A stretch of 64,000 bases of DNA from Candidatus Dormiibacterota bacterium (GTDB lineage: Bacteria > Chloroflexota > Dormibacteria > Aeolococcales > Aeolococcaceae): contig DASZGL010000006.1 in NCBI GenBank assembly GCA_035938875.1, forward strand, positions 3,978 to 67,977, given 5' to 3'. Shown here in pieces: positions 31,371 through 56,282 of the stretch. The position numbers and the translations under genes are program-made. The notes beneath the pieces were generated by a model. It did not search any database. It saw only the letters and a list, made by a program, of their open reading frames with translations, and was not told the DNA's origin. Every line of letters begins with the position of its first letter. Within the stretch, counting starts at the first letter, position 1.

Positions 31371-32741
31371 CTAGAGCGGCGTCATCGCGGTTGCGATTGG
31401 CAGCGGGCCGAGCAGGTCGAGGATTCCCGTGGTGTAGTCGCCGCTGCGAAATACCGGCGAGGTGAGCACGTGGCGATGCACCGCGAGGTTGGTCTTGACG
31501 CCCTCGATGACGAAGGCGTCGACAGCCGCCAGGGCGCGGTCGATGGCGGCGTCGCGGTCGGCCGCATGGACAACCAACTTGGCGAGCAGGGGATCGTAGA
31601 GGTGGGTGACGACGGTGCCGGCGCGTACCCCGCTGTCGACGCGCACGCCGTCGCCGCTGGGCTCCTGGTATGCGGTGATCGTGCCCGGGCTGGGCAGCAT
31701 GCGCTGTGGATCCTCCGCGTACACCCGCATCTCGATGGCATGGCCGGTGGCATGGACGTCGCCCTGAGCGGCACGCAGCGGTTCGCCCGCGGCAATGCGC
31801 AGCTGTTCGCGGACGATGTCGATGCCGGTACACATCTCGGTGATGGGATGCTCCACCTGCAGGCGCGTGTTCATCTCCAGGAAGTAGAAGTTGCGCTGGG
31901 CGTCGACGAGGAATTCGACGGTTCCCGCGTTGATGTAGCCGATCGATCGCGAGGCGAGCACGGCGGCTGCGGTGATTCGTCTGCGCAGGGCGTCGGTGAG
32001 CGCGCACGATGGCGTCTCCTCGATCACCTTCTGGTGGCGGCGCTGCACGCTGCACTCGCGCTCGCCGAGATGGATGGTCGCGCCCGCACCGTCGGCAAGC
32101 ACCTGGACCTCGACGTGTCTGGGGCCCTCGACGAAGCGCTCGAGGTACACGTCGCCGTCGGCGAATGCCGCCGCGGCGCGCTGCCTGGCGGTGGCCACAG
32201 CGGCGTCCAGCGCCGCCGGTGAGTCGACCCGCTGCATGCCGATACCACCACCGCCGGCGCTTGCCTTGACCATCACCGGGTAGCCGATGGCCGCCGCGGT
32301 GGTGGCGGCATCGCCGTCGTCGCCGAGCGCGGCGTCGCTGCCCGGGGCCACCGGAAGGCCGGCCTCGCTCATGATCCGGCGCGCGGCGAGCTTGTTGCCC
32401 ATCGCCGCCACGACGTCAGCGGGTGGGCCGATCCAGGTCAGGCCGGCGTCCTCGACCGCGCGGGCGAATGCCGCGTTCTCGGAGAGGAATCCGTAGCCGG
32501 GGTGGACCGCGTCCGCTCCGCTGGAGCGCGCCGCCCCGAGCACCGCCTCGACGTTGAGGTACGACTGCGCCGCCGGCCCGGGACCGATGAGAACCGCGCT
32601 GTCGGCCTCGGCGACAAAGGGGGCATCGGCGTCGACGTCGGAGTGCACGGCAACCGCCTCGATGCCCTCCTCGTGGCAGGCGCGGATCACGCGCCTGGCA
32701 ATCTCGCCACGGTTGGCCACCAGGACGCGGCGCAGCCCCAC
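31371..32741 (-). CDS. Biotin carboxylase subunit (no fused BCCP)
   Basis: 'RVLVANRGEIARRVIRACHEEGIEAVAVHSD', 'HPGYGFLSENAAFA', 'YPVMVKASAGGGGIGM', 'ERECSVQRRHQKVIEE', 'NTRLQVEHPITE'. GTG 32741 is preceded by GGAGGG. Confidence 0.93.
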   Translation of the reverse strand: MGLRRVLVANRGEIARRVIRACHEEGIEAVAVHSDVDADAPFVAEADSAVLIGPGPAAQSYLNVEAVLGAARSSGADAVHPGYGFLSENAAFARAVEDAGLTWIGPPADVVAAMGNKLAARRIMSEAGLPVAPGSDAALGDDGDAATTAAAIGYPVMVKASAGGGGIGMQRVDSPAALDAAVATARQRAAAAFADGDVYLERFVEGPRHVEVQVLADGAGATIHLGERECSVQRRHQKVIEETPSCALTDALRRRITAAAVLASRSIGYINAGTVEFLVDAQRNFYFLEMNTRLQVEHPITEMCTGIDIVREQLRIAAGEPLRAAQGDVHATGHAIEMRVYAEDPQRMLPSPGTITAYQEPSGDGVRVDSGVRAGTVVTHLYDPLLAKLVVHAADRDAAIDRALAAVDAFVIEGVKTNLAVHRHVLTSPVFRSGDYTTGILDLLGPLPIATAMTPL

Positions 32742-32906
32742 TGAAACCCTCCATTTCCGCCCGGGACACGCTGCCGTGCCCTGGTCGCAGGGCAGGCGGC
32801 GGCGGCCGCACCTTGCTCGGCGTCCCAAGTCTAGCCACCGGTCACCAGCCTCCCGATGCGCTGACGCGGCGTGCGGCGACCGTGCGCGATCGCCTCATCT
32901 GAGGCC

Positions 32907-33323
32907 TCACTTCTGCGGCGCTGTTCCAGCCACCGCGAGCTCGGGCTCGGCTTCGGCGGTGTCCGCCTCGGCGTCGTCGGCTGCATCGGTCGACGACGGC
33001 TCGCGCCGGTCGAGCCAGCGGACCGACTCGGCGACGATCTCCGTGGTATGGCGCCGTAGCCCGTCGCTGCCGTCGTAGTCGCGCGTGCGCAGGCGCCCCT
33101 CGATGTAGACGCGGCGGCCGCGCACGCCGTACTCGGCGCAGACCTCGGCAGTCCGCCCGAAGGCGACTACGGAGTGATACTCGGCCGTCTCCTGGCGATT
33201 GCCCTCGGCGTCACGCCACACGGTGTTGGTGGCCAGGCGCAGGCGGGTGAAGGCGGTGCGAGCGCCGGCGACTGACTCGGCGTCACGGGTGAGGTTGCCG
33301 ATGAGGATGACGCGGTTGATCAC
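32907..33323 (-). CDS. ssb: Single-stranded DNA-binding protein (OB fold) with non-canonical C-terminus
   Basis: 'VINRVILIGNLTRDAE...TNTVWRDAEGNRQETAEYHSVVAFGRTAEVCAEYGVRGRRVYIEGRLRTRDY'. GTG 33323 is preceded by AAGGAG. The tail ends '...EAEPELAVAGTAPQK'. Confidence 0.88.
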   Translation of the reverse strand: MINRVILIGNLTRDAESVAGARTAFTRLRLATNTVWRDAEGNRQETAEYHSVVAFGRTAEVCAEYGVRGRRVYIEGRLRTRDYDGSDGLRRHTTEIVAESVRWLDRREPSSTDAADDAEADTAEAEPELAVAGTAPQK

Positions 33324-33358
33324 GGCGGTGCTCCTTGTTGGGGGTTGAGACGTTGCGG

Positions 33359-33901
33359 TCAGGGAAGCGCGACATAGTCCTGGGGATCGACGGCGACGCC
33401 ATCGCGACGAACCTCGAAGTGCAGGTGCGGACCCGTTGAGTTGCCCGACGAGCCGACGGTCCCGAGCTGCTGACCGAGAGCGACGGCGGCGCCGTCGTCG
33501 ACCACCACCGACGAGAGGTGCGCATAGATGGTGGTGATCCCGTCGCCGCAGTCGACGATGACGTGGAGTCCGTACCCGGTCAGCGAGCGGACCACGTGCA
33601 CCGTGCCGTCGAGCGCGGCGATGACGGGGGTCCCCGAGACGGCGCCGAGGTCGATGCCGTTGTGACGAAAGCCGCCGGGACACGTCGGGTCGGGCATCTC
33701 CAGCGCCAGCGTGGTGCAGCCGAAGGGCAGCGACACCGTGGCCCCGACGACGGGACGGGTCATCGCCGGGGCGGTGTCGAGGCCCCCGCCAGCCTGGGTG
33801 GCGATGACCACGGTCGCGCCGGCGGCGACGACTAGAAATGTGAACACGCAGCCGAAGGGGAGCACCACCACCGCGCCGAGAGCGAGGATGATCCGCTTCA
33901 C
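33359..33901 (-). CDS. Membrane-anchored M23 (LytM-type) metallopeptidase
   Basis: TM 'IILALGAVVVLPFGCVFTFLVVAAG', then 'HNGIDLGA' (HxxxD), 'IYAHLS', 'GNSTGPHLHFEV' (HxH). GTG 33901 overlaps the upstream TGA (GTGA). Confidence 0.88.
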   Translation of the reverse strand: MKRIILALGAVVVLPFGCVFTFLVVAAGATVVIATQAGGGLDTAPAMTRPVVGATVSLPFGCTTLALEMPDPTCPGGFRHNGIDLGAVSGTPVIAALDGTVHVVRSLTGYGLHVIVDCGDGITTIYAHLSSVVVDDGAAVALGQQLGTVGSSGNSTGPHLHFEVRRDGVAVDPQDYVALP

Positions 33902-34857
33902 GCCGAGGAGCTCGAGTGCGACGTGTGCGTGGTGTGGTGCCCGTGATGCACGGCGCGGCGAAGCGAACGCTCCACGTGATGACCCAGCGTCTCCGCCTTG
34001 GTCTCCAGGTGTGATGCGGTGTTCATCGCGCCAGGAACCTTGAGCAGCAGGAACAGCGTCGCCAGCGCGTAGAGCGTCTGCACCAGCCCGCTCTCCGCGT
34101 CGAAGGCAAGGGCCGTGGCCACCCGCAGCACGATCAGCTGCACCGGCTGCATGAACACCGCCACCAGGAAGATGCGCATCCACGTCCGGGCGTAGCCGCG
34201 CGTCTCCGGCAGTGTCGTGCAGAGACCGGCGAGCGGCGCGATGACGATGAGGACGCCGAGCAGTGCGTGACGGACAACGTAGGCGAGCACCAGGATGATC
34301 ACCGCCACCACCAGGATCACGGCGAAGACCGCGTGGAACAGATCCTGGGTGACCGCGAGGTGGTGCACGGTCTCATGGCTCAGCGGCGGCGACCAGGGCA
34401 GTTGGTCGACATTGATGTTGTCGCCGAGTGACAGCGCCATCTGCGACATGGCGTTGTCGAGGTCGACAGCCATCTGCATCAGCGGTAGCGAGAACTGCAC
34501 CAGGACGATGGCGAGCATGAGGCGGGGAAGCATCACCTTGAGGCTGTACCTCGCCCTGAAGGAGCGCTCGAAGAGGCTGCGCAGGCAGGCGAAGGTGAGC
34601 ACCAGGGCCATCAACGCGTCGGCGGCCACGGCGACGCCAAGGTTGAGGCGGCTCAGCGAGGGATTGGCGGTGATCGGCCGGTTGCCCGGGACCGATGTGT
34701 CGATCGTGCTGAACAGGTGGCGCTGAAGCACCCGATCGATGTCGCTGCGCGCGCCGTCCACGAAGGTCAGCAACGCCCCCGTGAGCATGTCGATGAAGGA
34801 GCTGACCGGGTGTCGTAGCTCGCTGAGCAGTGCGGGGACCAACGCGTGTACCGACAT
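33898..34857 (-). CDS. Six-TM membrane protein, TrbL/VirB6-like (tentative), His-rich C-tail
   Basis: About 6 TM helices. The segment 'ALLGVLIVIAPLAGLCTTLPETRGYARTWMRIFLVAVF' matches, from memory, the conserved APxA...TRGW...W core of actinobacterial/Gram-positive TrbL/VirB6 proteins. C-terminus 'HHGHHTTHTSHSSSSA'. Not verified by search. Confidence 0.5.
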   Translation of the reverse strand: MSVHALVPALLSELRHPVSSFIDMLTGALLTFVDGARSDIDRVLQRHLFSTIDTSVPGNRPITANPSLSRLNLGVAVAADALMALVLTFACLRSLFERSFRARYSLKVMLPRLMLAIVLVQFSLPLMQMAVDLDNAMSQMALSLGDNINVDQLPWSPPLSHETVHHLAVTQDLFHAVFAVILVVAVIILVLAYVVRHALLGVLIVIAPLAGLCTTLPETRGYARTWMRIFLVAVFMQPVQLIVLRVATALAFDAESGLVQTLYALATLFLLLKVPGAMNTASHLETKAETLGHHVERSLRRAVHHGHHTTHTSHSSSSA

Positions 34858-34870
34858 CGCCGCGCGGGAG

Positions 34871-35110
34871 TCAGTGGAGGTTGCTGGGGATGGTGGAGAT
34901 CAGCGCATGGGTCAAGGTGCCGGCAACCTCGACACCGATGGTGCCGAAGACGATCCGGCCGATCCAGCGCTTCGCCTCCATGACGCTGCGCGGCTCGACG
35001 GCGATGATCTTGTACATGAAGGCGATGAGGAAGGCGAGCGCGCCGATGCTGCCGATCAAGCCCTGCGCCAGGAGGATCCAGTTGTCGATCAGCTGCTTCA
35101 GCGATTCCAC
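34871..35110 (-). CDS. Small two-TM protein, VirB2/TrbC-pilin-like topology (tentative), 79 aa
   Basis: GTG 35110 lies 1 nt after the upstream TGA (35112-35114). 'LIDNWILLAQGLIGSIGALAFLIAFMY-KIIAVEPRSVMEAKR-WIGRIVFGTIGVEVAGTLTHALI' is hydrophobic / charged loop / hydrophobic. Topology-based call only. Confidence 0.35.
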   Translation of the reverse strand: MESLKQLIDNWILLAQGLIGSIGALAFLIAFMYKIIAVEPRSVMEAKRWIGRIVFGTIGVEVAGTLTHALISTIPSNLH

Positions 35111-35111
35111 G

Positions 35112-35474
35112 TCAGCGGCCCCTGCTGGAGCTGGCGAGGATCTGCATGATCTGGTCAGCGATGACCGATTCGAGGCGGAGTAACAGGGCGTACTCACCGG
35201 TCGCCGTGCTCGCCGTGTCGCGGTTGAACCGGCGCAGCAGGTCGGGCGAGAATACGGCGCCGGCGGCGCCCGGGGGTTGGGCTGTCGCGGTGCGAGCCGG
35301 GACCGGAATCGCCGGCCATGACGGCGGTGGTGGCGGGCTGGAGTGCGCCCAGTGCATCACCGCCGCGGCGGTCTCGCGGACACCCCCGCTGACCATGCGC
35401 ACGGCGACGAAGCCGAGGGCCACCGCGGCGGCGAGCTGGAGCGCGACGAGCAGGCGGAACCAGCGTGGGACCAT
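35112..35474 (-). CDS. Hypothetical N-terminally TM-anchored protein, 120 aa
   Basis: 'WFRLLVALQLAAAVALGFVAV' TM, Pro-rich spacer, C-terminal 'EYALLLRLESVIADQIMQIL'. First gene of the coupled cassette. No family recognised. Confidence 0.35.
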   Translation of the reverse strand: MVPRWFRLLVALQLAAAVALGFVAVRMVSGGVRETAAAVMHWAHSSPPPPPSWPAIPVPARTATAQPPGAAGAVFSPDLLRRFNRDTASTATGEYALLLRLESVIADQIMQILASSSRGR

Positions 35475-35592
35475 GGGGCGGCCTCCAGTGGTGGTCGACG
35501 GCCGCCCCTCCGGCCTGCAGCACGGTCAGGCTGCGGCGCGGAGCATACACATGTTTGTAGTAGGCGTCAACGCCCGCCAGCCCGGGTCCACG

Positions 35593-36243
35593 TCAGTTGG
35601 GGGAGATGCGCCCCATGGGTACGTCGCGCCGACTGAGCATCTGCCCGAGGAGCACCGACTCGCGGCGCAGCAGCGAGAGGCAACGCCGCAGCCGCGACGC
35701 CGCCGAGTTCAGCTCCAGCAGCTCCTGCTTGCGGGGGATCTCGATCTGCAGCGTCGCTGACACCAGGTAGCTGAGCAGCTCGGGATCGTCCGGCAGGTCC
35801 AGTTCTGCGTGGCGGCGATCGCTGAGCTCGGCGATGTGATCGGCGTACTGGCGAAACGCCGTGGTCACCTGTCCCGCCAGCCGCTGCACCGCGGCGGGGT
35901 CACCTACCTCATCCTCGAGATACTCGACTTCGCCGACAAGGTAGGGACGCTTGGTCGACGTGCTCGCGATGCGAAATCGCGAGGCGCCGACACAGAGCAG
36001 GTTGTAGCGGCCGTCCTCCAGCTTTTCGACTTCGCGGAGCTGGGCGAGCGTGCCCACCGGGTGCGGCGTCGCTGCGCCGTGGGCCTCGACTCCCGCGCGA
36101 ATGGCGACGACGCCGAAGGTCACGCCCTCCTCTTCGCAGTCACGCATCATCACGCGGTAGCGGTCCTCGAAGATGTGCAGCGGCAGAGGCATGTGCGGAA
36201 AGAGCACGGTCGAGAGCGGAAACAGTGGGATCTCCACGCCCAT
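35593..36243 (-). CDS. Stand-alone Lon N-terminal (LON substrate-binding) domain protein
   Basis: 'IPLFPLSTVLFPHMPLPLHIFEDRYRVMMRDC', 'VGTLAQLREVEKLEDGRYNLLCVGASRFRI'. No AAA+ or protease domain. Start ATG 36243. Confidence 0.8.
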   Translation of the reverse strand: MGVEIPLFPLSTVLFPHMPLPLHIFEDRYRVMMRDCEEEGVTFGVVAIRAGVEAHGAATPHPVGTLAQLREVEKLEDGRYNLLCVGASRFRIASTSTKRPYLVGEVEYLEDEVGDPAAVQRLAGQVTTAFRQYADHIAELSDRRHAELDLPDDPELLSYLVSATLQIEIPRKQELLELNSAASRLRRCLSLLRRESVLLGQMLSRRDVPMGRISPN

Positions 36244-51527: not shown

Positions 51528-51698
51528 ATCTGAATTCCCTTCCGTCGCAACTCTCCCCAGGACCTCCGCAGACACGATGGCGACCGTCGCGTGGCCTGCA
51601 AATATCTGTATACACCGTCGTACGCCCTCCGTGTACCCCTTGCTCCCTTTGGTTCGCTACGGGCGTCGCGCCGAAGCGGGCATATACTCAGATCCCGG

Positions 51699-52703
51699 AT
51701 GCGCGGGCCCAGGCATCCGCATGGACTCGGTGGAGGACTGGCAGCGTTGTCGGCCGTGGTTCGCGGGACGGTGCGCCGGCTCGTGGAGAGCGTGGGCACG
51801 GTGATCGTCGGCAAGGACGCCGAGATCGAGCTCTGTGTCATCGCTCTGCTCTGCCGCGGCCACGTGCTCATCGAGGACGTCCCCGGGGTGGGCAAGACGA
51901 TGCTCGCCAAGGCGCTGGCCCGGTCGCTCGGCTGCCAGTTCGACCGGGTCCAGTTCACCCCAGACCTGCTTCCCGGTGACGTCACCGGGGTCAACGTCTT
52001 CAATCCCAAGACGACGTCGTTCGAGTTCCGCCCGGGGCCGATCTTCGCCCAGGTGCTGCTCGCCGACGAGATCAACCGGGCGACGCCCAAGACCCAGTCA
52101 GCGCTCCTCGAGGCGATGGAGGAGCATCAGGTGACCGTCGACGGGACCACTCACCCCCTCCCCGATCCCTTCATCGTCCTGGCGACGGAGAACCCCATCG
52201 AGCTGGGCGGCACCTACCCGCTGCCCGAGGCCCAGGTCGACCGCTTCCTCCTCAAGGTGCACCTCGGCTACCTCCCCCTCGACCAGGAGGTGGCGATGCT
52301 CGACCGCTTCCAGACGGCGACGCCGCTGGAGGCCGTCATCCCGGTGACCACACCCGCTGAGCTCATCGCCTGCCAGGCGGCGATCTCCGCGACCTGGTGC
52401 GACCCGGCGCTCAAGGACTACGCGGTGCGCGTCGTCCAGCGCACCCGCAGTCACGCCGACGTGGCCCTCGGGGCCTCGCCGCGGGGCAGCCTCGGCCTGC
52501 TCCGCGCGGCCCAGGCGCGGGCCGCGGCCGGCGGCCGGGACTACGTGCTCGCCGACGACATGAAGGAGCTTGCCCCAGCGGTGCTGGCCCATCGCATCGT
52601 CGTCAAGCCCAACGCCGAGCTGCGCGGTGTCACCCCTGACAGCGTCCTCGCCGAGGTGCTCGACACCGAGTCCGTGCCTGTCGCGGGACGCCGGTTCGCG
52701 TGA
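51699..52703 (+). CDS. MoxR-family AAA+ ATPase (copy 2)
   Basis: 'LIEDVPGVGKT', 'VQFTPDLLPGDVTG', 'LLADEINRATPKTQSALLEAMEEHQVT'. Confidence 0.92.
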   Translation: MRGPRHPHGLGGGLAALSAVVRGTVRRLVESVGTVIVGKDAEIELCVIALLCRGHVLIEDVPGVGKTMLAKALARSLGCQFDRVQFTPDLLPGDVTGVNVFNPKTTSFEFRPGPIFAQVLLADEINRATPKTQSALLEAMEEHQVTVDGTTHPLPDPFIVLATENPIELGGTYPLPEAQVDRFLLKVHLGYLPLDQEVAMLDRFQTATPLEAVIPVTTPAELIACQAAISATWCDPALKDYAVRVVQRTRSHADVALGASPRGSLGLLRAAQARAAAGGRDYVLADDMKELAPAVLAHRIVVKPNAELRGVTPDSVLAEVLDTESVPVAGRRFA

Positions 52704-53896
52704 GCACCCGCGCGCCGCTGATCGCGTGCATCGCGGTGCTCAGCTTCTTCGCCGGCATCACCGGGGTGCGCCTCGCCTACACCCTTGCCTACGTGCTCGT
52801 CTTCCTGCTGGCGCTGGCCTTCGTGTGGTCGCGGGCCATCGCCCGGCGCCTCGAGGTGAGCCGGGAGTCACCGGAGGGCTCGTTCATGGTCGGCGAGCCG
52901 TTCACCGAGCGATTCACCGTGGTCAACCGCGGGATCCTGCCCGTGGCCTACTGCGAGCTGCACGACGGCACGCGGATTCCCGGCTATGTTCCCGGCCGGG
53001 CCTTCTCGCTCGCCGGAGGCGGCAGCGTCACCTGGGCGACCCGTGGCGTTTTCCTTCGCCGTGGCCTGTACAGCTTCGGCCCCATCGAGGCGCGCCTCGG
53101 CGATCCCTTCGGACTGTTTCCCCGCGGCGTCCGAGTGGCTCCTCGCACCACCGTGCTCGTCTACCCGGCGGTGCACGCTGTCGGTGAGCTGGGAGTGCTG
53201 ACCTCGGGCAGCTCCGTCGGCGACGCGCCCCGAGGACGCCCTCTCGACGTGCCCCCCGACGTCGCCACGGTGCGCGAGTACGACCCGTCCGACGGCATGG
53301 GCAGGATCCACTGGGCGACGACGGCGCGAACCGGGCGGCTGATGAGCCGGGTGCACGACACTCGCCAGAGCGCCGACGTGCTCGTCTTCCTCGACCTGCG
53401 CCGGGGGCTGAGCGCCGGTGATGCCCCGGAGTCGGTGCTCGAGTACGCGGTGACCCTGGCGGCGTCGGTGTGCCACGCGGGGTTGCGCCGCGGCCAGGCC
53501 GTCGGCCTGGTGACCAACGATTCCAGGCACACGGCCATCGGCGCCGGCCGCGGCGAGGCGCAGCGCCTGCGCATCCTCGAGTACCTGGCGACCGCTGAGG
53601 ACGACGGGAGCACGACGCTCGCCGAGACGATCACCCGCTATGGCGAGGGCTGGCGGGGACGCGGGGGGATCATCCTGATCACCGCCGACCGAAACCCGGG
53701 GTGGATCGAGGCCGTGCTCGACGTCGGGGTGCGCGGCCAGCGCCACCTGACGATCTTCGTCGAGCCGACGTCGTTCGGCGCCACCGGCCCGCCGATGCGA
53801 GTCCTCGCCGCCTGGCGTCTGGCCCTCGACTGGTGGCTGGTCCGCCGCGGCGACGACCTGAGCGTCGGTCGCCGGCGTCGCGCCGTCGGCCAGTAG
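52700..53896 (+). CDS. DUF58 domain protein (copy 2)
   Basis: GTGA overlap with moxR. N-terminal TM hairpin. 'VREYDPSDGMGRIHWATTARTGRLMSRVH'. Confidence 0.85.
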   Translation: MSTRAPLIACIAVLSFFAGITGVRLAYTLAYVLVFLLALAFVWSRAIARRLEVSRESPEGSFMVGEPFTERFTVVNRGILPVAYCELHDGTRIPGYVPGRAFSLAGGGSVTWATRGVFLRRGLYSFGPIEARLGDPFGLFPRGVRVAPRTTVLVYPAVHAVGELGVLTSGSSVGDAPRGRPLDVPPDVATVREYDPSDGMGRIHWATTARTGRLMSRVHDTRQSADVLVFLDLRRGLSAGDAPESVLEYAVTLAASVCHAGLRRGQAVGLVTNDSRHTAIGAGRGEAQRLRILEYLATAEDDGSTTLAETITRYGEGWRGRGGIILITADRNPGWIEAVLDVGVRGQRHLTIFVEPTSFGATGPPMRVLAAWRLALDWWLVRRGDDLSVGRRRRAVGQ

Positions 53897-53906
53897 GGCG
53901 GCTGCG

Positions 53907-56282
53907 GTGGTCGCCGCGCGGGTTCGCGCTGGTGGCGCGGTCGACACCCCCGACCGTTTCATCGTCCTGCTGCTGACGGTGGCCATGGTGGCCACCACCA
54001 CCTGGGCGGTCATGGCCGCTGACTGGGCCGACAGCACCGGGAGCGTCCTGCTCACCTCCGTCGTCGCCGTCGTCGAGGCGGCGCTGCTGGCGCGCTCCTG
54101 GGCGGGGCGTCTGGCCGCGGCCGCCGCCGCGCCGCTGCTCGGCATCCTGGTCATCGTGCCGCTGACGCTGGCGGCGATGCCCGCCGACGGCGGCGAGGGG
54201 CTGCGCAACGTCATTGCCCGCTACGCCGTGGCTCTGACCACGGGCCTCTACGACACCGGCAACTGGGGATTCCTCGTCGGCCTCTGCGCCGCCATGTGGC
54301 TGGTGGGTTTCGCCACCGGCTGGCTGGCCCTGCGTGAACGGCGTGGCGTCCTGGCGCTGCTCCCGTGCTACGTCGTTCTTGCCATCAATGTCCTCAACGC
54401 GCCGTCGCCGAGCGATGTCGCGGTGCCCCAGACACTGGCGATCGGCGTCTCGCTCCTGCTGCTCGCGCGCGTCCACCTTGGTGCCCTGGAGCAGACCTGG
54501 CGGCGGCGCCGTCTCATCGCCCTACCGGGCACTGACCGGCGCTACAGCCGCGCCGCATCGGGAGCGGCTGTGGTCCTGGTGCTGCTGGCGATCGTCGTGC
54601 CTCCGGCGACCAGCCGGGACGTGTCCGGTTTTCTCTCCCACATCTTCGGCGCCAACGGCTCGTCGGGGGCGCGCGCCGGCAACCTGGGAAGCAAATCGCC
54701 CAGCGCCAACGCCATCGGCTTCTCGTCGGTCACCCGTCCCGGCGGGGCGCTGGTCAACGACCCCCGACCGGTGCTCAGCTACACCCTGGCGAGCTCCGAC
54801 ACCGTCTACCTGCGCCAGGTCAACGACACCATATTCGACCAGGGCAACTGGTACCCCGCCGACGTCGGGGGAATACCGAACGCGGTGAACGCCGCCCCCG
54901 GCTCCATCCCCCGCGATCGCGATCCCAGCCACGGAGGGGTGGCGGCGACCTCGCTGGCGCGCCAGGTCCAGGCGCGCATCAACTTCAGCGCGTCACCCGG
55001 CGACGGCCCGCGACAAGCGGTCTTCCCCGGCGAGCCCGACCAGAGCTCAATCGCGTCGCGGGTGTTCGGGCTCGACGGCGGCGCTCTCGGCGGCGACACC
55101 GGCCCGCTGCTCACCGTCGACCACGTCGACCTGCGCAGTTTCAGCAACAACCTGGTCACCGTCGGCCTTGTCTCCACGGCAACCGAGGACCAGCTGCGCC
55201 AGGCGGGCGCCACCGCCTATCCCGACTGGGTGACGCCGCGCTATGTCGCGCTGCCCGCCGGGGGCACGGCGATCGGCTCGCGAGAGATCGCGCTGATCAA
55301 CGACCTCGCCCGCCAGTGGACCTCCGGCGCCACCAACAACTACGACCGGGCGAAGATGATCGAGGGCCACCTGCGCTCCAGCGAGTTCACCTACACGCTC
55401 ACCCCACCGCAGGTGCCCGGCGGCCAGTGGCCGATCGCCTACTTCCTGCAGACGTCGCATACCGGCTACTGCCAGTACTTCGCCTCGTCGATGGGGGCCC
55501 TGCTTCGAGCGCTGCAGATCCCCACTCGGCTGGTGTCGGGCTACGGGCCGGGGACGCAGGACGACAGCTCGAGCGGGGTCAAGTCTTTCCTCCACACGGT
55601 CACCAGCAGCGACGCCCACGTCTGGGTCGAGGCCTACTTCCCCGGCTACGGCTGGATCCCCTTCGAGCCCACCCCGTCGAGCCCCTACGGCGTCTACGAC
55701 CCCATCGCGCGGGGCGGCCAGACCGCGGTGCCGTCGACTCCCGCAGCCACCCCGCAACCGTCGAGCAGCCCGTCGCCGTCACACACACCGACCCCCGACC
55801 AGCAGAACGGCGGTGGCGGCTTCGCGGGCCAGGGACCGCCCCGGATCCTCGTCGGCTCCGTCGGTGGGTTGGTGCTGTTGTTCGTGCTCACCACGGCCGC
55901 CACACTCTGGCTCTTCCGCCCTCGCGGAGTCCGAGCCGTGTGGCGACGGGTCAACCTGCTCGGCCGTCTCTTCGGCGCGCGCCAGCGTCCCGCAGAGACC
56001 TTCGCCGCCTACGCGAAACGGCTCGCCAACGCCCTGCCGCCCGACACCACGACGGTGTTCCACCGCGACGGCTCGGCTCCGCCGGTCACCCGCCGGGTGC
56101 GCGGCCGCGCCAGCGACGCGCTGGCGCTGATCGCCGAGTACGAGGGCAAGGCCGGCTTCTCTCGCGACGGGCTCACCGACCAGGAGACGGTTCGCTGGCG
56201 GCGCGCCTGGCGGCGGATCTGCCGCGCCGTGCCGCTGCTGCTCTGGCGCCGGCTGCTCAGCCGGACGGCGCGCCCGACGTAG
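53907..56282 (+). CDS. Polytopic membrane transglutaminase (TgpA-like, DUF3488 + transglutaminase core)
   Basis: About 6 N-terminal TMs. Core 'GYCQYFASSMGALLRALQIPTRLVSGY', 'DAHVWVEAYFPGYGWIPFEPT'. One further TM after a Pro/Ser linker. Confidence 0.85.
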   Translation: MVAARVRAGGAVDTPDRFIVLLLTVAMVATTTWAVMAADWADSTGSVLLTSVVAVVEAALLARSWAGRLAAAAAAPLLGILVIVPLTLAAMPADGGEGLRNVIARYAVALTTGLYDTGNWGFLVGLCAAMWLVGFATGWLALRERRGVLALLPCYVVLAINVLNAPSPSDVAVPQTLAIGVSLLLLARVHLGALEQTWRRRRLIALPGTDRRYSRAASGAAVVLVLLAIVVPPATSRDVSGFLSHIFGANGSSGARAGNLGSKSPSANAIGFSSVTRPGGALVNDPRPVLSYTLASSDTVYLRQVNDTIFDQGNWYPADVGGIPNAVNAAPGSIPRDRDPSHGGVAATSLARQVQARINFSASPGDGPRQAVFPGEPDQSSIASRVFGLDGGALGGDTGPLLTVDHVDLRSFSNNLVTVGLVSTATEDQLRQAGATAYPDWVTPRYVALPAGGTAIGSREIALINDLARQWTSGATNNYDRAKMIEGHLRSSEFTYTLTPPQVPGGQWPIAYFLQTSHTGYCQYFASSMGALLRALQIPTRLVSGYGPGTQDDSSSGVKSFLHTVTSSDAHVWVEAYFPGYGWIPFEPTPSSPYGVYDPIARGGQTAVPSTPAATPQPSSSPSPSHTPTPDQQNGGGGFAGQGPPRILVGSVGGLVLLFVLTTAATLWLFRPRGVRAVWRRVNLLGRLFGARQRPAETFAAYAKRLANALPPDTTTVFHRDGSAPPVTRRVRGRASDALALIAEYEGKAGFSRDGLTDQETVRWRRAWRRICRAVPLLLWRRLLSRTARPT

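What the first reader, a model, noticed from the sequence alone, without database searches (positions are those of the whole stretch)
33359..35474. ATPase-less VirB2-like / VirB6-like / M23 hydrolase cassette, translationally coupled, in a core-gene context
Four minus-strand ORFs are packed with 1-4 nt junctions. TGA 35112-35114 is followed by GTG 35110, and GTGA sits at 33898-33901.

The four ORFs, in order:
1. A 120-aa N-terminally anchored protein.
2. A 79-aa protein that is essentially two hydrophobic helices joined by a charged loop. This is the VirB2/TrbC pilin layout.
3. A 319-aa six-TM protein. Its 'ALLGVLIVIAPLAGLCTTLPETRGYARTWMRIFLVAVF' segment resembles the conserved core I remember from actinobacterial/Gram-positive TrbL/VirB6 proteins. 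It also has a His-rich tail.
4. A TM-anchored M23 peptidase with intact HxxxD and HxH metal ligands.

These are the channel, pilin and cell-wall-hydrolase parts of a conjugative T4SS. I find no VirB4, VirD4/FtsK-type coupling ATPase, relaxase, VirB8-like protein, integrase or replication gene anywhere in the 64 kb. The composition is not visibly different from the flanks.

Either this is a domesticated remnant of an ICE, or it is a compact envelope-spanning module with another function (surface filament, DNA or protein conduit, cell-wall remodelling) that has not been described.
Basis: partly seen in the sequence, partly recalled or inferred. Interest (0 to 1): 0.72.

Follow-up and report, generated by a model that had tools for sequence, protein, structure and literature searches.

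The report
Chromosomal type IV secretion remnant, Dormibacterota
A five-gene operon built from conjugation-machine parts (pilin-like protein, VirB6-like channel, cell-wall hydrolase, DNA-binding SSB) sits in the core chromosome across the uncultured soil phylum Dormibacterota, apparently without its motor ATPase in this lineage, and looks like a bacterial counterpart of the domesticated DNA-transfer systems of archaea.

Summary
It needs one addition: a fifth gene, a non-canonical SSB, belongs to the cassette.

**Operon (minus strand, 35474-32907).** It encodes a 120-aa anchored protein, a 79-aa two-helix protein, a 319-aa six-TM TrbL/VirB6 protein, a catalytically intact M23 peptidase and a 138-aa SSB without the usual acidic C-terminal tip.
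- TrbL membership is solid: Pfam above threshold, and hhalign 99% to the TrbL of a complete T4SS.
- The pilin assignment is sub-threshold. It rests mainly on the pilin-TrbL gene pair seen in complete T4SS.

**Not a decaying ICE.**
- The pilin-like/TrbL pair is present in all 83 distinct Dormibacterota genome loci examined.
- All five genes occur in deep lineages.
- The setting is core genes, with synteny conserved among the window's closest relatives.
- The 79-aa protein evolves about as slowly as core enzymes.

**"ATPase-less" is only partly true.**
- The 64 kb holds no VirB4, coupling protein, relaxase or integrase.
- A VirB4-family ATPase is encoded at an unlinked Tad-pilus locus in about 144 other Dormibacterota species, and in 7 of 7 cassette-bearing genomes outside the window's clade.
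- None of the 73 species of the window's clade appears among those carriers.

**Best reading.** A domesticated T4SS translocon for single-stranded DNA, analogous to archaeal Ced/Ted. The function is inferred, not shown.

The parts
35542..35570 (-). Sigma-70-like promoter, TTGACG-17 nt-TATGCT, in the 118-bp gap upstream of the 120-aa gene
   Evidence: It is the only promoter-like site in 32600-35800; shuffles give 0.1 expected. No intrinsic terminator was found inside the cassette.
35112..35474 (-). p120: N-terminal TM anchor, Pro/Ala-rich linker and a C-terminal helical segment of about 45 aa with motif L-x-R-L-N-R-D-T...G-E-Y; conserved accessory protein of unknown fold
   Evidence: No Pfam, NCBIfam, PHROG, PADLOC or PDB match. 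A custom HMM finds a homologue on the same strand upstream of the pilin-like gene in the window and 56 loci. It is adjacent in the window's subclade and in deep lineages, and 0.4-9 kb away elsewhere.
34871..35110 (-). p79: 79-aa two-helix membrane protein, VirB2/T4SS_pilin-like, without a signal peptide
   Evidence: GTG start 1 nt after the p120 stop. AlphaFold gives a helical hairpin, H2-36 and H41-71, pLDDT 76. Pfam T4SS_pilin E=0.02-0.03; 6 of 11 orthologues match with E up to 1, best 0.004, all below the gathering score. It holds the position that bona fide T4SS_pilin genes hold immediately upstream of TrbL_3 in L089 and L090. It is 72-92% identical across the clade, and the motif EAKRWIGRIVFGTIGVE-AGTL is nearly invariant.
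33898..34857 (-). TrbL/VirB6-family polytopic membrane protein, 319 aa, about six TM helices, with a His/Arg-rich cytoplasmic tail
   Evidence: Pfam TrbL_4 E=2.3e-8, above the cut-off. Homologues carry TrbL_3/TrbL_4. hhalign against the TrbL_3 of a complete T4SS gives probability 99.1%, E=1e-18, over 244 columns. The top three Foldseek PDB hits are TrwI/VirB6 of R388, but the model is weak: pLDDT 62, TM 0.35-0.41.
33359..33901 (-). Membrane-anchored M23 (LytM-type) peptidoglycan endopeptidase, 180 aa
   Evidence: GTGA start/stop overlap with TrbL. Pfam Peptidase_M23 E=2e-31. The H-x-x-x-D, Y-A-H and H-L-H-F motifs are present here and in 70 of 72 orthologues. The gene is absent from the locus in one subclade of 15 species.
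32907..33323 (-). Non-canonical SSB, 138 aa: OB fold plus acidic linker, but no C-terminal D-D-x-P-F tip; last gene of the unit
   Evidence: Pfam SSB E=5e-26 and TIGR00621 E=1e-31. AAGGAG ribosome-binding site, 35 nt after the M23 stop. All cassette SSBs that could be read to their stop end in a small, hydrophobic Ala/Gly-rich tail instead of the acidic tip. It follows M23 or TrbL in 40 of 83 loci, including all deep lineages.

Best explanation
**Shown**
- The window comes from a Dormibacterota genome.
- Positions 35474-32907 (minus strand) form one tightly packed operon: p120, p79 (VirB2-like), TrbL/VirB6, an M23 endopeptidase and a tip-less SSB.
- The operon derives from a monoderm-type conjugative T4SS. 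In complete elements that T4SS reads pilin, TrbL, PrgI, VirB4, coupling protein, relaxase, hydrolase.
- The cassette is fixed in the chromosome, inherited vertically through the phylum, and kept under purifying selection. The p79-TrbL pair is its invariant core.

**Inferred mechanism**
- TrbL, with p79 as its small partner, forms the cytoplasmic-membrane translocon. p79 may act as a membrane stalk or a short filament.
- The anchored M23 enzyme opens the peptidoglycan locally.
- The SSB coats single-stranded DNA at the cytoplasmic face.
- There is no relaxase and no coupling protein to select and export a substrate. The SSB lacks the partner-binding tip, like competence-specific SsbB. I therefore favour DNA import, or relaxase-independent chromosomal DNA exchange, as in the archaeal Ced/Ted systems, over classical conjugative export.

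**Energy source**
- In most of the phylum the likely motor is an unlinked VirB4-family ATPase encoded beside Tad-pilus genes.
- In the window's own clade that ATPase was not detected. There the module either uses another motor or works without one.
For: **Identity**
- Family assignments.
- Archetype complete T4SS with an overlapping pilin-TrbL pair.

**Conservation**
- 74 loci found with the TrbL profile, all Dormibacterota.
- The five-gene set occurs in deep or divergent lineages in different chromosomal contexts.
- Architecture counts over 83 loci.
- Synteny with biotin-carboxylase genes.
- p79 dN 0.08-0.18, against 0.14-0.22 for neighbouring core enzymes.
- M23 catalytic residues retained.

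**Not mobile**
- No integrase, relaxase or ATPase in the window.
- No relatives in PLSDB plasmids by tblastn or in IMG/VR.
- No compositional deviation.

**DNA link**
- SSB is the terminal gene and lacks the acidic tip.

**Motor**
- The VirB4-like family matches VirB4 4AG5 (E=6e-52) and TrwK (E=8e-10).
- 208 loci in genome representatives.
- It lies at Tad loci.
- It co-occurs with the cassette in S3_bin.41, CTOTU41361, SMAG_U6551, BP_627, S3_bin.8, CF_12 and WH2.bin132.

**Precedent**
- Ced/Ted are domesticated VirB2/VirB6/VirB4 systems, with the ATPase sometimes separated by several genes and with unprocessed pilins (PMC9905601).
- Patescibacteria carry a relaxase-less chromosomal T4SS (PMC12102498).
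Against: - No experiment and no expression data. The phylum is uncultured.
- The pilin assignment is sub-threshold, and fold and sequence searches against PDB give nothing.
- Neither M23 nor SSB is universal at the locus. 41 loci lack SSB and 15 lack M23. Only p79-TrbL is obligatory in cis, and that pair says nothing direct about DNA.
- I could not test whether these genomes have a separate canonical SSB. The cassette SSB might therefore be the housekeeping one.
- In the window's clade, none of 73 species appears among about 144 VirB4-bearing species. A VirB4-driven mechanism may not apply to this window.
- No T4SS is known to translocate DNA without a VirB4-type ATPase.
Confidence: 0.42

Rival explanations
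1. An envelope or cell-wall module with no DNA role. The p79-TrbL membrane complex has been co-opted as a scaffold or regulator that positions the M23 hydrolase for wall remodelling, division or another envelope process. This would resemble FtsEX-EnvC or SpoIIIA-SpoIIQ. The SSB is merely a co-transcribed, possibly housekeeping, gene.
For: - M23 is translationally coupled to TrbL by a GTGA overlap and is catalytically intact.
- p79 is as conserved as core enzymes, which is unusual for a pilin.
- The window's clade seems to lack the VirB4 motor.
- SSB is missing from the locus in 41 of 83 genomes.
Against: - M23 itself is missing from the locus in 15 genomes while p79-TrbL-SSB remains.
- The SSB lacks the tip expected of a replicative SSB.
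- The SSB sits at the end of the cassette in all deep lineages, in unrelated chromosomal contexts.
- Outside the window's clade the cassette co-occurs with a VirB4 ATPase.
Confidence: 0.2
2. A T4SS-derived surface filament or protein-secretion device. p79 polymerises on a TrbL platform into a pilus used for adhesion or contact, possibly together with the Tad pilus locus where the VirB4-like gene sits. Alternatively the channel exports proteins.
For: - p79 has the VirB2-like hairpin layout and the pilin gene position.
- The VirB4-like gene is embedded in a Tad/Flp cluster.
- The Patescibacterial chromosomal T4SS with VirB2-like pilins is thought to serve non-conjugative functions (PMC12102498).
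Against: - Exposed pilins normally diversify, yet p79 is nearly invariant.
- Pilus extraction from the membrane needs VirB4 (established for R388-type systems; my knowledge). VirB4 was not found in this clade.
- The SSB linkage is left unexplained.
Confidence: 0.13
3. A decaying, non-functional fragment of an integrated conjugative element.
For: - The ATPases, relaxase and coupling protein are missing locally.
- M23 or SSB has been lost from the locus in some subclades.
Against: - ORFs are intact in 80 or more species, with one probable frameshift (L055).
- The position is syntenic among the window's close relatives.
- dN is at or below that of core enzymes for p79.
- Catalytic residues are retained.
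- There is no integrase, no element-flanking tRNA site and no GC deviation.
- There are no plasmid or viral relatives.
Confidence: 0.03

Closest known systems
Monoderm (actinobacterial-type, MPF-FATA-like) conjugative T4SS with T4SS_pilin (PF18895) and TrbL_3/TrbL_4, e.g. locus L089 (GCA_042754105.1)
   Same: - The same gene pair in the same order: a small two-helix pilin-type gene immediately upstream of, and overlapping or abutting, a TrbL-family gene.
- The TrbL cores align over 244 columns (hhalign 99.1%).
- A cell-wall hydrolase is part of the set.
   Different: - The complete system continues with PrgI/VirB3, VirB4 (728 aa), a coupling protein (794 aa) and a Replic_Relax relaxase. None is in the window.
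- Its pilin has a long signal peptide; p79 has none.
- Its TrbL is 730 aa with large N- and C-terminal extensions; here only the 319-aa core remains.
- Its hydrolase is SLT/NlpC_P60, not M23.
- It has no SSB in the cluster.
- It is carried on a mobile element, not fixed in a core context.
Archaeal Ced and Ted systems (CedA/TedA VirB6-like, CedA1/TedC VirB2-like, CedB/TedB VirB4-like), Beltran et al. 2023, PMC9905601
   Same: - Chromosomal, vertically inherited ('domesticated') T4SS derivative without a relaxase.
- A small two-TM pilin-type protein next to a 6-7-TM channel protein.
- Ced pilins are apparently not processed.
- The ATPase can be separated from the pilin/channel genes.
- Proposed substrate is cellular DNA, imported.
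   Different: - No detectable sequence similarity was tested or expected. The origin is independent (bacterial monoderm T4SS).
- Ced/Ted have no M23 hydrolase or SSB in the operon.
- Ced/Ted always have the VirB4-like ATPase. In the window's clade none was found.
- The function of the Dormibacterota system is untested.
Chromosomal T4SS of Patescibacteria (CPR), Microb Genom 2025, PMC12102498
   Same: - Phylum-wide, chromosomal, mostly relaxase-less T4SS derived from monoderm conjugation machinery.
- Includes VirB6 and PF18895-type VirB2-like proteins.
- Patescibacteria are placed as sister to Chloroflexota plus Dormibacterota.
   Different: - In Patescibacteria the components cluster around virB4 with PrgI/VirB3 and TrsD, and the pilins are often in variable multi-copy arrays.
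- Here there is a single, nearly invariant p79, and no VirB4 or PrgI at the locus.
- M23 and SSB are present instead.
- The phylogenetic relationship of the two VirB4 groups was not tested.
Helicobacter pylori ComB T4SS-based competence system (my knowledge; cited as ref. 13 in PMC12102498)
   Same: T4SS parts are used for DNA uptake rather than conjugative export. There is no relaxase.
   Different: ComB is a diderm VirB2-4 and VirB6-10 set with its own ComB4 ATPase. It works with ComEC. There is no SSB or M23 in the operon.

Membership tests
TrbL/VirB6 family (Pfam TrbL_3 PF19590, TrbL_4 PF19597) | Profile match above the curated threshold, and homology to the TrbL of a bona fide T4SS | tested here: met
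   TrbL_4 scores 34.2 bits against a cut-off of 27. Orthologues carry both families. hhalign probability 99.1%, E=1e-18, against the L089 TrbL_3.
TrbL/VirB6 family | VirB6-like fold | tested here: inconclusive
   The top three Foldseek PDB hits are TrwI/VirB6 (probability 0.85-0.98), but E is 0.06-0.15, TM is 0.35-0.41 and model pLDDT is 62.
VirB2 / T4SS_pilin (PF18895, PF04956) | Profile match above the curated threshold | tested here: not met
   PF18895 scores 15 bits against a cut-off of 26.6. 6 of 11 orthologues match with E up to 1, best 0.004. TrbC PF04956 E=0.13 in one member. hhalign against two real pilins gives E=0.019, probability 2%.
VirB2 / T4SS_pilin | Two hydrophobic helices joined by a short charged loop, encoded next to virB6 | tested here: met
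   Hairpin H2-36 and H41-71. The gene sits directly upstream of TrbL in every locus with enough upstream sequence, among 83 loci. Complete T4SS show the same arrangement.
VirB2 / T4SS_pilin | N-terminal signal peptide cleaved to give the mature pilin | tested here: not met
   p79 begins at the position of the mature N-terminus of the L089 and L090 pilins and has no leader. Ced pilins are likewise unprocessed (PMC9905601).
Type IV secretion system (functional MPF unit) | VirB4 ATPase, the only ubiquitous T4SS protein | tested here: not met
   Absent from the 64-kb window and from within 10 kb of 81 of the 83 cassette loci. The two exceptions are L069 and L084, where it lies nearby on the same contig. 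A VirB4 family exists elsewhere in the genome in other Dormibacterota. It was not seen in any of the 73 species of the window's clade. Whole genomes could not be searched.
Conjugative element (ICE or plasmid) | Relaxase and type IV coupling protein | tested here: not met
   No hit in the window or in 1.5 Mb of cassette loci, using the L089 relaxase and coupling protein as queries and Pfam scans.
Conjugative element (ICE or plasmid) | Integrase, an attachment site at a tRNA, compositional deviation, patchy distribution | tested here: not met
   No integrase. The only tRNA is 8 kb away. GC content matches the flanks. The cassette is present throughout the clade at a position syntenic among the window's close relatives. 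No plasmid or viral relatives.
Domesticated T4SS for cellular DNA transfer (Ced/Ted-like) | Chromosomal, vertically inherited VirB2-like, VirB6-like and VirB4-like set without a relaxase | tested here: inconclusive
   Chromosomal and vertical inheritance, the VirB6-like protein and the absence of a relaxase are met. The VirB2-like protein is positional only. The VirB4-like protein is met in 7 of 7 non-clade genomes but was not found in the window's clade.
Domesticated T4SS for cellular DNA transfer (Ced/Ted-like) | Demonstrated DNA import or exchange | not testable with these tools
   The phylum is uncultured, and no expression or genetic data are available here.
Peptidase M23 (LytM-type endopeptidase) | HxxxD and HxH zinc ligands plus the catalytic His | tested here: met
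   HNGID, YAH and HLH are present. They are conserved in 70 of 72 orthologues. Pfam E=2e-31.
Bacterial SSB (TIGR00621) | OB-fold ssDNA-binding domain | tested here: met
   Pfam SSB E=5e-26; TIGR00621 scores 110 bits against a cut-off of 54.
Bacterial SSB (replicative type) | Conserved acidic C-terminal tip (D-D-D-I-P-F type) that recruits replication and repair partners | tested here: not met
   The window SSB ends ...LAVAGTAPQK. All cassette SSBs that could be read to their stop end in Ala/Gly-rich tails without P-F.

The most novel reading that the evidence does not exclude
In the clade to which this window belongs, a T4SS-derived translocon (p79-TrbL with M23 and a dedicated SSB) has been kept for a very long time after loss of the VirB4 ATPase. 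It would be the first VirB4-independent descendant of a type IV secretion system. It could be a DNA conduit driven by another motor or by proton-motive force, or a channel protein moved to a new essential envelope role.
Probability: 0.15. Interest if true: 0.85.

Novelty: new variant of a known kind. Interest (0 to 1): 0.64.

Why it matters
**A bacterial case of a domesticated conjugation machine**
- Domestication of conjugation machinery for cellular DNA transfer has been described in hyperthermophilic archaea.
- In 2023 the authors of that work stated they knew of no other case (PMC9905601).
- A chromosomal T4SS of unknown role has since been described in Patescibacteria.
- This finding adds a third lineage, free-living and found in soil. 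Its parts are split over two loci: the translocon operon with an SSB, and a VirB4 gene at a Tad-pilus locus.

**A natural experiment**
- One large clade appears to keep the translocon without the motor.
- This makes two questions directly testable by comparative genomics and metatranscriptomics in a widespread but uncultured phylum:
  - How do Dormibacterota exchange or scavenge DNA?
  - Can VirB6-type channels work without VirB4?

**A target for structure work**
- The nearly invariant 79-aa protein is an attractive target for structure prediction and heterologous expression.

Tried and rejected
**Searches that gave nothing**
- tblastn of TrbL against PLSDB plasmids: no match.
- TrbL profile against IMG/VR viral contigs: no relative.
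- PADLOC: nothing. PHROGs: only generic M23 and SSB domain hits. Prophage and defence readings were dropped.
- Foldseek of the p79 model against PDB: no hits.
- PDB sequence searches with the p79, p120 and TrbL profiles: nothing meaningful.
- hhalign of p79 against the TrbL profile, testing the proposed VirB2/VirB6 N-terminal relationship: not significant.
- The L069-type VirB4 used as a query: only 7 clusters, none on contigs of the window's clade.

**Technical failures**
- A 30-sequence alignment of divergent TrbL relatives was too diverse for locus finding.
- My first stop-to-stop ORF architecture count was unreliable. A tblastn-based count replaced it.

**Corrected readings**
- A 620-aa ORF between p120 and p79 in the L037 clade looked like a possible ATPase. 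It is BipA/TypA.
- A conserved 167-aa 'ORF' after M23 in that clade is the antisense shadow of a convergent membrane-protein gene resembling a CDP-alcohol phosphatidyltransferase (motif judged by eye, not profile-tested).
- dN/dS ratios are inflated for all genes, because GC3 bias compresses dS. I therefore compared dN only.


Full report
**1. What is in the sequence**

The window is about 70% G+C throughout. Between 35474 and 32907 on the minus strand lie five closely spaced ORFs.

| Gene | Coordinates | Notes |
|---|---|---|
| p120 | 35474-35112 | N-terminal TM helix, Pro-rich linker, short C-terminal helical segment |
| p79 | 35110-34871 | GTG start one base after the p120 stop |
| TrbL-like | 34857-33898 | 319 aa, starts 13 nt after the p79 stop |
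| M23 peptidase | 33901-33359 | 180 aa, GTG start overlaps the TrbL stop (GTGA) |
| SSB | 33323-32907 | 138 aa, 35 nt further on, behind an AAGGAG ribosome-binding site |

- Its '1-4 nt junctions' holds for two of the three junctions.
- The only sigma-70-like promoter in 3.2 kb (TTGACG-17-TATGCT, 35570-35542) lies just upstream of p120. No intrinsic terminator lies inside the unit.

**2. Family assignments**

- **TrbL.** It matches Pfam TrbL_4 above the gathering score (E=2.3e-8).
  - Its relatives carry TrbL_3 and TrbL_4.
  - A profile of it aligns to the TrbL_3 protein of a complete conjugative cluster with hhalign probability 99.1% (E=1e-18, 244 columns).
  - An AlphaFold model from 20 sequences is only moderately confident (pLDDT 62). 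Its three best PDB matches are nevertheless all TrwI/VirB6 of plasmid R388.
- **M23.** The domain match is strong (E=2e-31). The HxxxD, catalytic His and HxH motifs are present here and in 70 of 72 orthologues.
- **SSB.** It is a clear OB-fold SSB. It and every cassette SSB that could be read to its stop lack the acidic D-D-x-P-F tip and end in an Ala/Gly-rich tail.
- **p79.** The model is a helical hairpin.
  - Profile support for T4SS_pilin is below threshold.
  - Fold and PDB sequence searches return nothing.
  - The best argument for a VirB2-type origin is positional. In two T4SS-type clusters, a PF18895 pilin gene sits immediately upstream of, and overlaps, the TrbL_3 gene. One of the two (L089) is complete; the other (L090) is cut off just after the TrbL gene.
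  - p79 aligns by eye with the mature part of those pilins (NW...Y...DP/EP...EKAK/EAK motifs) but has no signal peptide.
- **p120.** It matches no library.

**3. Context in the window**

- Pfam scans of 34 further ORFs across the window, including every candidate of about 390 aa or more, gave only housekeeping functions. Examples:
  - 2-oxoglutarate dehydrogenase;
  - biotin carboxylase, enoyl-CoA hydratase and carboxyltransferase;
  - a Lon N-terminal domain protein and a response regulator.
- Only two ORFs of 150 aa or more carry a Walker A motif, and both are small.
- There is one tRNA-Glu 8 kb away and no integrase.

**4. Distribution**

- The TrbL protein has hundreds of close relatives (54-99% identity), named Candidatus Dormibacteraeota where named at all.
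- A scan of one genome per species found 74 loci. All are Dormibacterota MAGs, a few mislabelled, and they include two complete chromosomes.
- More divergent 290-350-aa relatives found by an exhaustive profile search also come from Dormibacterota where their source could be identified. They carry the same five genes in the same order in quite different chromosomal neighbourhoods.
- Architecture over 83 distinct genome loci:

| Architecture | Loci |
|---|---|
| p79-TrbL-M23-SSB | 23, plus 2 truncated |
| p79-TrbL-M23 | 40, plus 2 truncated |
| p79-TrbL-SSB | 14, plus 1 |
| p79-TrbL alone, with a VirB4 gene 2 kb upstream (L069) | 1 |

- p79 and TrbL are adjacent in every locus with enough upstream sequence.
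- A p120 homologue lies on the same strand upstream in the window and 56 loci. It is adjacent in the window's subclade and in the deep lineages. Elsewhere it is pushed 0.4-9 kb away by inserted genes such as bipA.
- The five-gene order is thus ancestral. Two subclades later lost M23 or SSB from the locus.

**5. Selection**

- Against the window, p79 is 72-92% identical in its clade. TrbL is 47-67% and M23 45-64% identical; SSB is 53-75% identical apart from one 19-residue fragment. Biotin carboxylase is 71-74% identical apart from one 32% hit, and carboxyltransferase 78-83%.
- Non-synonymous divergence:

| Gene | dN against the window |
|---|---|
| p79 | 0.08-0.18 |
| Carboxyltransferase | 0.14-0.15 |
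| Biotin carboxylase | 0.19-0.22 |
| TrbL | 0.26-0.42 |

- A motif of p79, EAKRWIGRIVFGTIGVE-AGTL, is almost invariant even in the deepest lineages.
- The cassette has no relatives in PLSDB plasmids by tblastn or in IMG/VR.
- This rules out a decaying ICE fragment.

**6. The ATPase question**

- A tblastn with the T4SS proteins of the complete cluster L089 against 1.5 Mb of cassette loci found VirB4-like sequence in two places:
  - upstream of p79 in L069;
  - 6 kb from the cassette on the opposite strand in L084.
- Starting from the L084 fragment, a VirB4-family ATPase of about 575 aa emerged (Walker A GHSGAGKT).
- Its profile matches the VirB4 structure 4AG5 at E=6e-52 and TrwK/VirB4 at E=8e-10.
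- It has 208 loci among genome representatives. The 80 best are all Dormibacterota.
- Apart from L084, no cassette gene lies within 10 kb of it.
- Instead it sits at the end of a Tad/Flp pilus cluster: TadB/C, TadE/G-like and RcpC/CpaB upstream, an alpha/beta-hydrolase downstream.
- All seven cassette-bearing genomes outside the window's clade that I could check also have this ATPase: S3_bin.41, CTOTU41361, SMAG_U6551, BP_627, S3_bin.8, CF_12 and WH2.bin132.

By contrast, the two lists together name about 144 distinct VirB4-bearing isolates.
- One list is the similarity-ranked 80. The other is a 120-row scan with a family-specific DNA motif, in an order that looks arbitrary (compiled).
- Apart from the outlier WH2.bin132 (L069), none of the 73 isolates of the window's clade is among them. 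That clade includes two complete chromosomes and many megabase contigs.
- The carriers include Ca. Dormiibacter and Dormibacterales. The window's clade includes Ca. Aeolococcus and Ca. Amunia.
- If the second list is a fair sample, at most a handful of species in the clade could carry a VirB4 with this motif.
- This is indirect evidence. I could not search whole genomes, and a divergent ATPase would have escaped.

**7. Interpretation**

*Shown*
- The cassette is a chromosomally fixed, vertically inherited derivative of a monoderm-type conjugative T4SS.
- It is reduced to the membrane translocon protein, its small partner, a wall hydrolase, an accessory anchored protein and an SSB.

*Inferred*
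- It is a conduit for single-stranded DNA. Three observations support this:
  - the dedicated, tip-less SSB, whose closest functional analogy is competence SsbB (my knowledge);
  - the absence of a relaxase and of a coupling protein;
  - the co-occurrence with an unlinked VirB4 in most of the phylum.
- The closest functional analogues are the archaeal Ced/Ted systems.
  - These are domesticated VirB2/VirB6/VirB4 sets that import cellular DNA.
  - Their pilins can be unprocessed, and their ATPase can lie several genes away (PMC9905601).
- The relaxase-less chromosomal T4SS of Patescibacteria, a sister lineage, is the nearest bacterial precedent (PMC12102498).
- I found no paper describing such a system in Dormibacterota.

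*Against the DNA reading*
- Neither SSB nor M23 is universal at the locus.
- The pilin assignment is weak.
- The motor seems to be missing in this very clade.
- A co-opted envelope role for p79-TrbL therefore remains a serious rival.

**8. Verdict**

- The system is a new variant of a known kind (a domesticated T4SS). It has an unusual split and, in this clade, an apparently motor-less architecture.
- It merits follow-up by whole-genome profiling and metatranscriptomics.

Noticed in passing
L104:5479-11713 and L111:4576-11632 (also L091, L092): In Dormibacterales-type genomes the orphan VirB4-family ATPase lies at the end of a Tad/Flp pilus cluster. TadB/C-like T2SSF proteins, a TadE/G-like protein and RcpC/CpaB lie upstream, and an alpha/beta-hydrolase follows. 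This may reflect functional coupling of a T4SS motor with a type IVc pilus, or only conserved synteny.
   Followed up: partly
L020:7808-7948 and L021:6192-6332: Short 46-aa ORFs reproduce the first 29 residues or so of p79 (MSxLKGLVDNWILLAQGLIGSIGALA...), 1.8-3.5 kb upstream of the real gene. They may be remnants of a partial duplication.
   Followed up: no
L055:9642-9985 (palsa_863): p79 is split over two frames. This is the only apparent frameshift among about 80 orthologues. It may be an assembly error or a pseudogene.
   Followed up: no
L038 and L068 (both MFD04434.bin.2.142): One MAG carries two copies of the p79-TrbL-M23 locus on different contigs. This may be strain heterogeneity or a real duplication.
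   Followed up: no
L084:7959-8972 (minus strand): About the first 45 residues of the VirB4-like ORF at the contig end match TsaE rather than VirB4. Dozens of TsaE proteins hit only this part. It is probably a misjoined contig end or a read-through of adjacent genes.
   Followed up: partly
L087:8253-12336: A more distant TrbL_3/TrbL_4 protein (389 aa), from a source I did not identify, is flanked by a 583-aa PEGA-domain protein and a 387-aa unknown. No ATPase lies within 10 kb. This is another possible ATPase-less use of a TrbL-family protein.
   Followed up: no
L113/L225 (CF_140), L109/L239 (CF_121), L133/L172 (SMAG_U5031): Several MAGs carry two VirB4-like loci on different contigs.
   Followed up: no
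L167:4425-4784: A second kind of short, tail-less SSB-like gene (118 aa, 31% identical to the cassette SSB) lies about 5 kb upstream of the VirB4-like gene in one Dormibacterota MAG.
   Followed up: no
window:1811-6031 (+): A 1406-aa protein fuses lipoyl, E3-binding and E2 acyltransferase domains to a 2-oxoglutarate dehydrogenase E1. This is the OdhA/Kgd-type fusion known from Actinobacteria (my knowledge).
   Followed up: no
window:21830-25361 (+) and 51534-56282 (+): There are two separate clusters of DUF58 and VWA-type proteins. The downstream cluster also holds a transglutaminase (TgpA-like) protein. Each looks like a MoxR-associated module.
   Followed up: no
window:35593-37585 (-): Directly upstream of the cassette lie a stand-alone Lon N-terminal (substrate-binding) domain protein and a 429-aa response regulator with a long low-complexity N-terminal region. 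No matches to them were detected next to the cassette in the other loci, so they are probably not part of it.
   Followed up: partly
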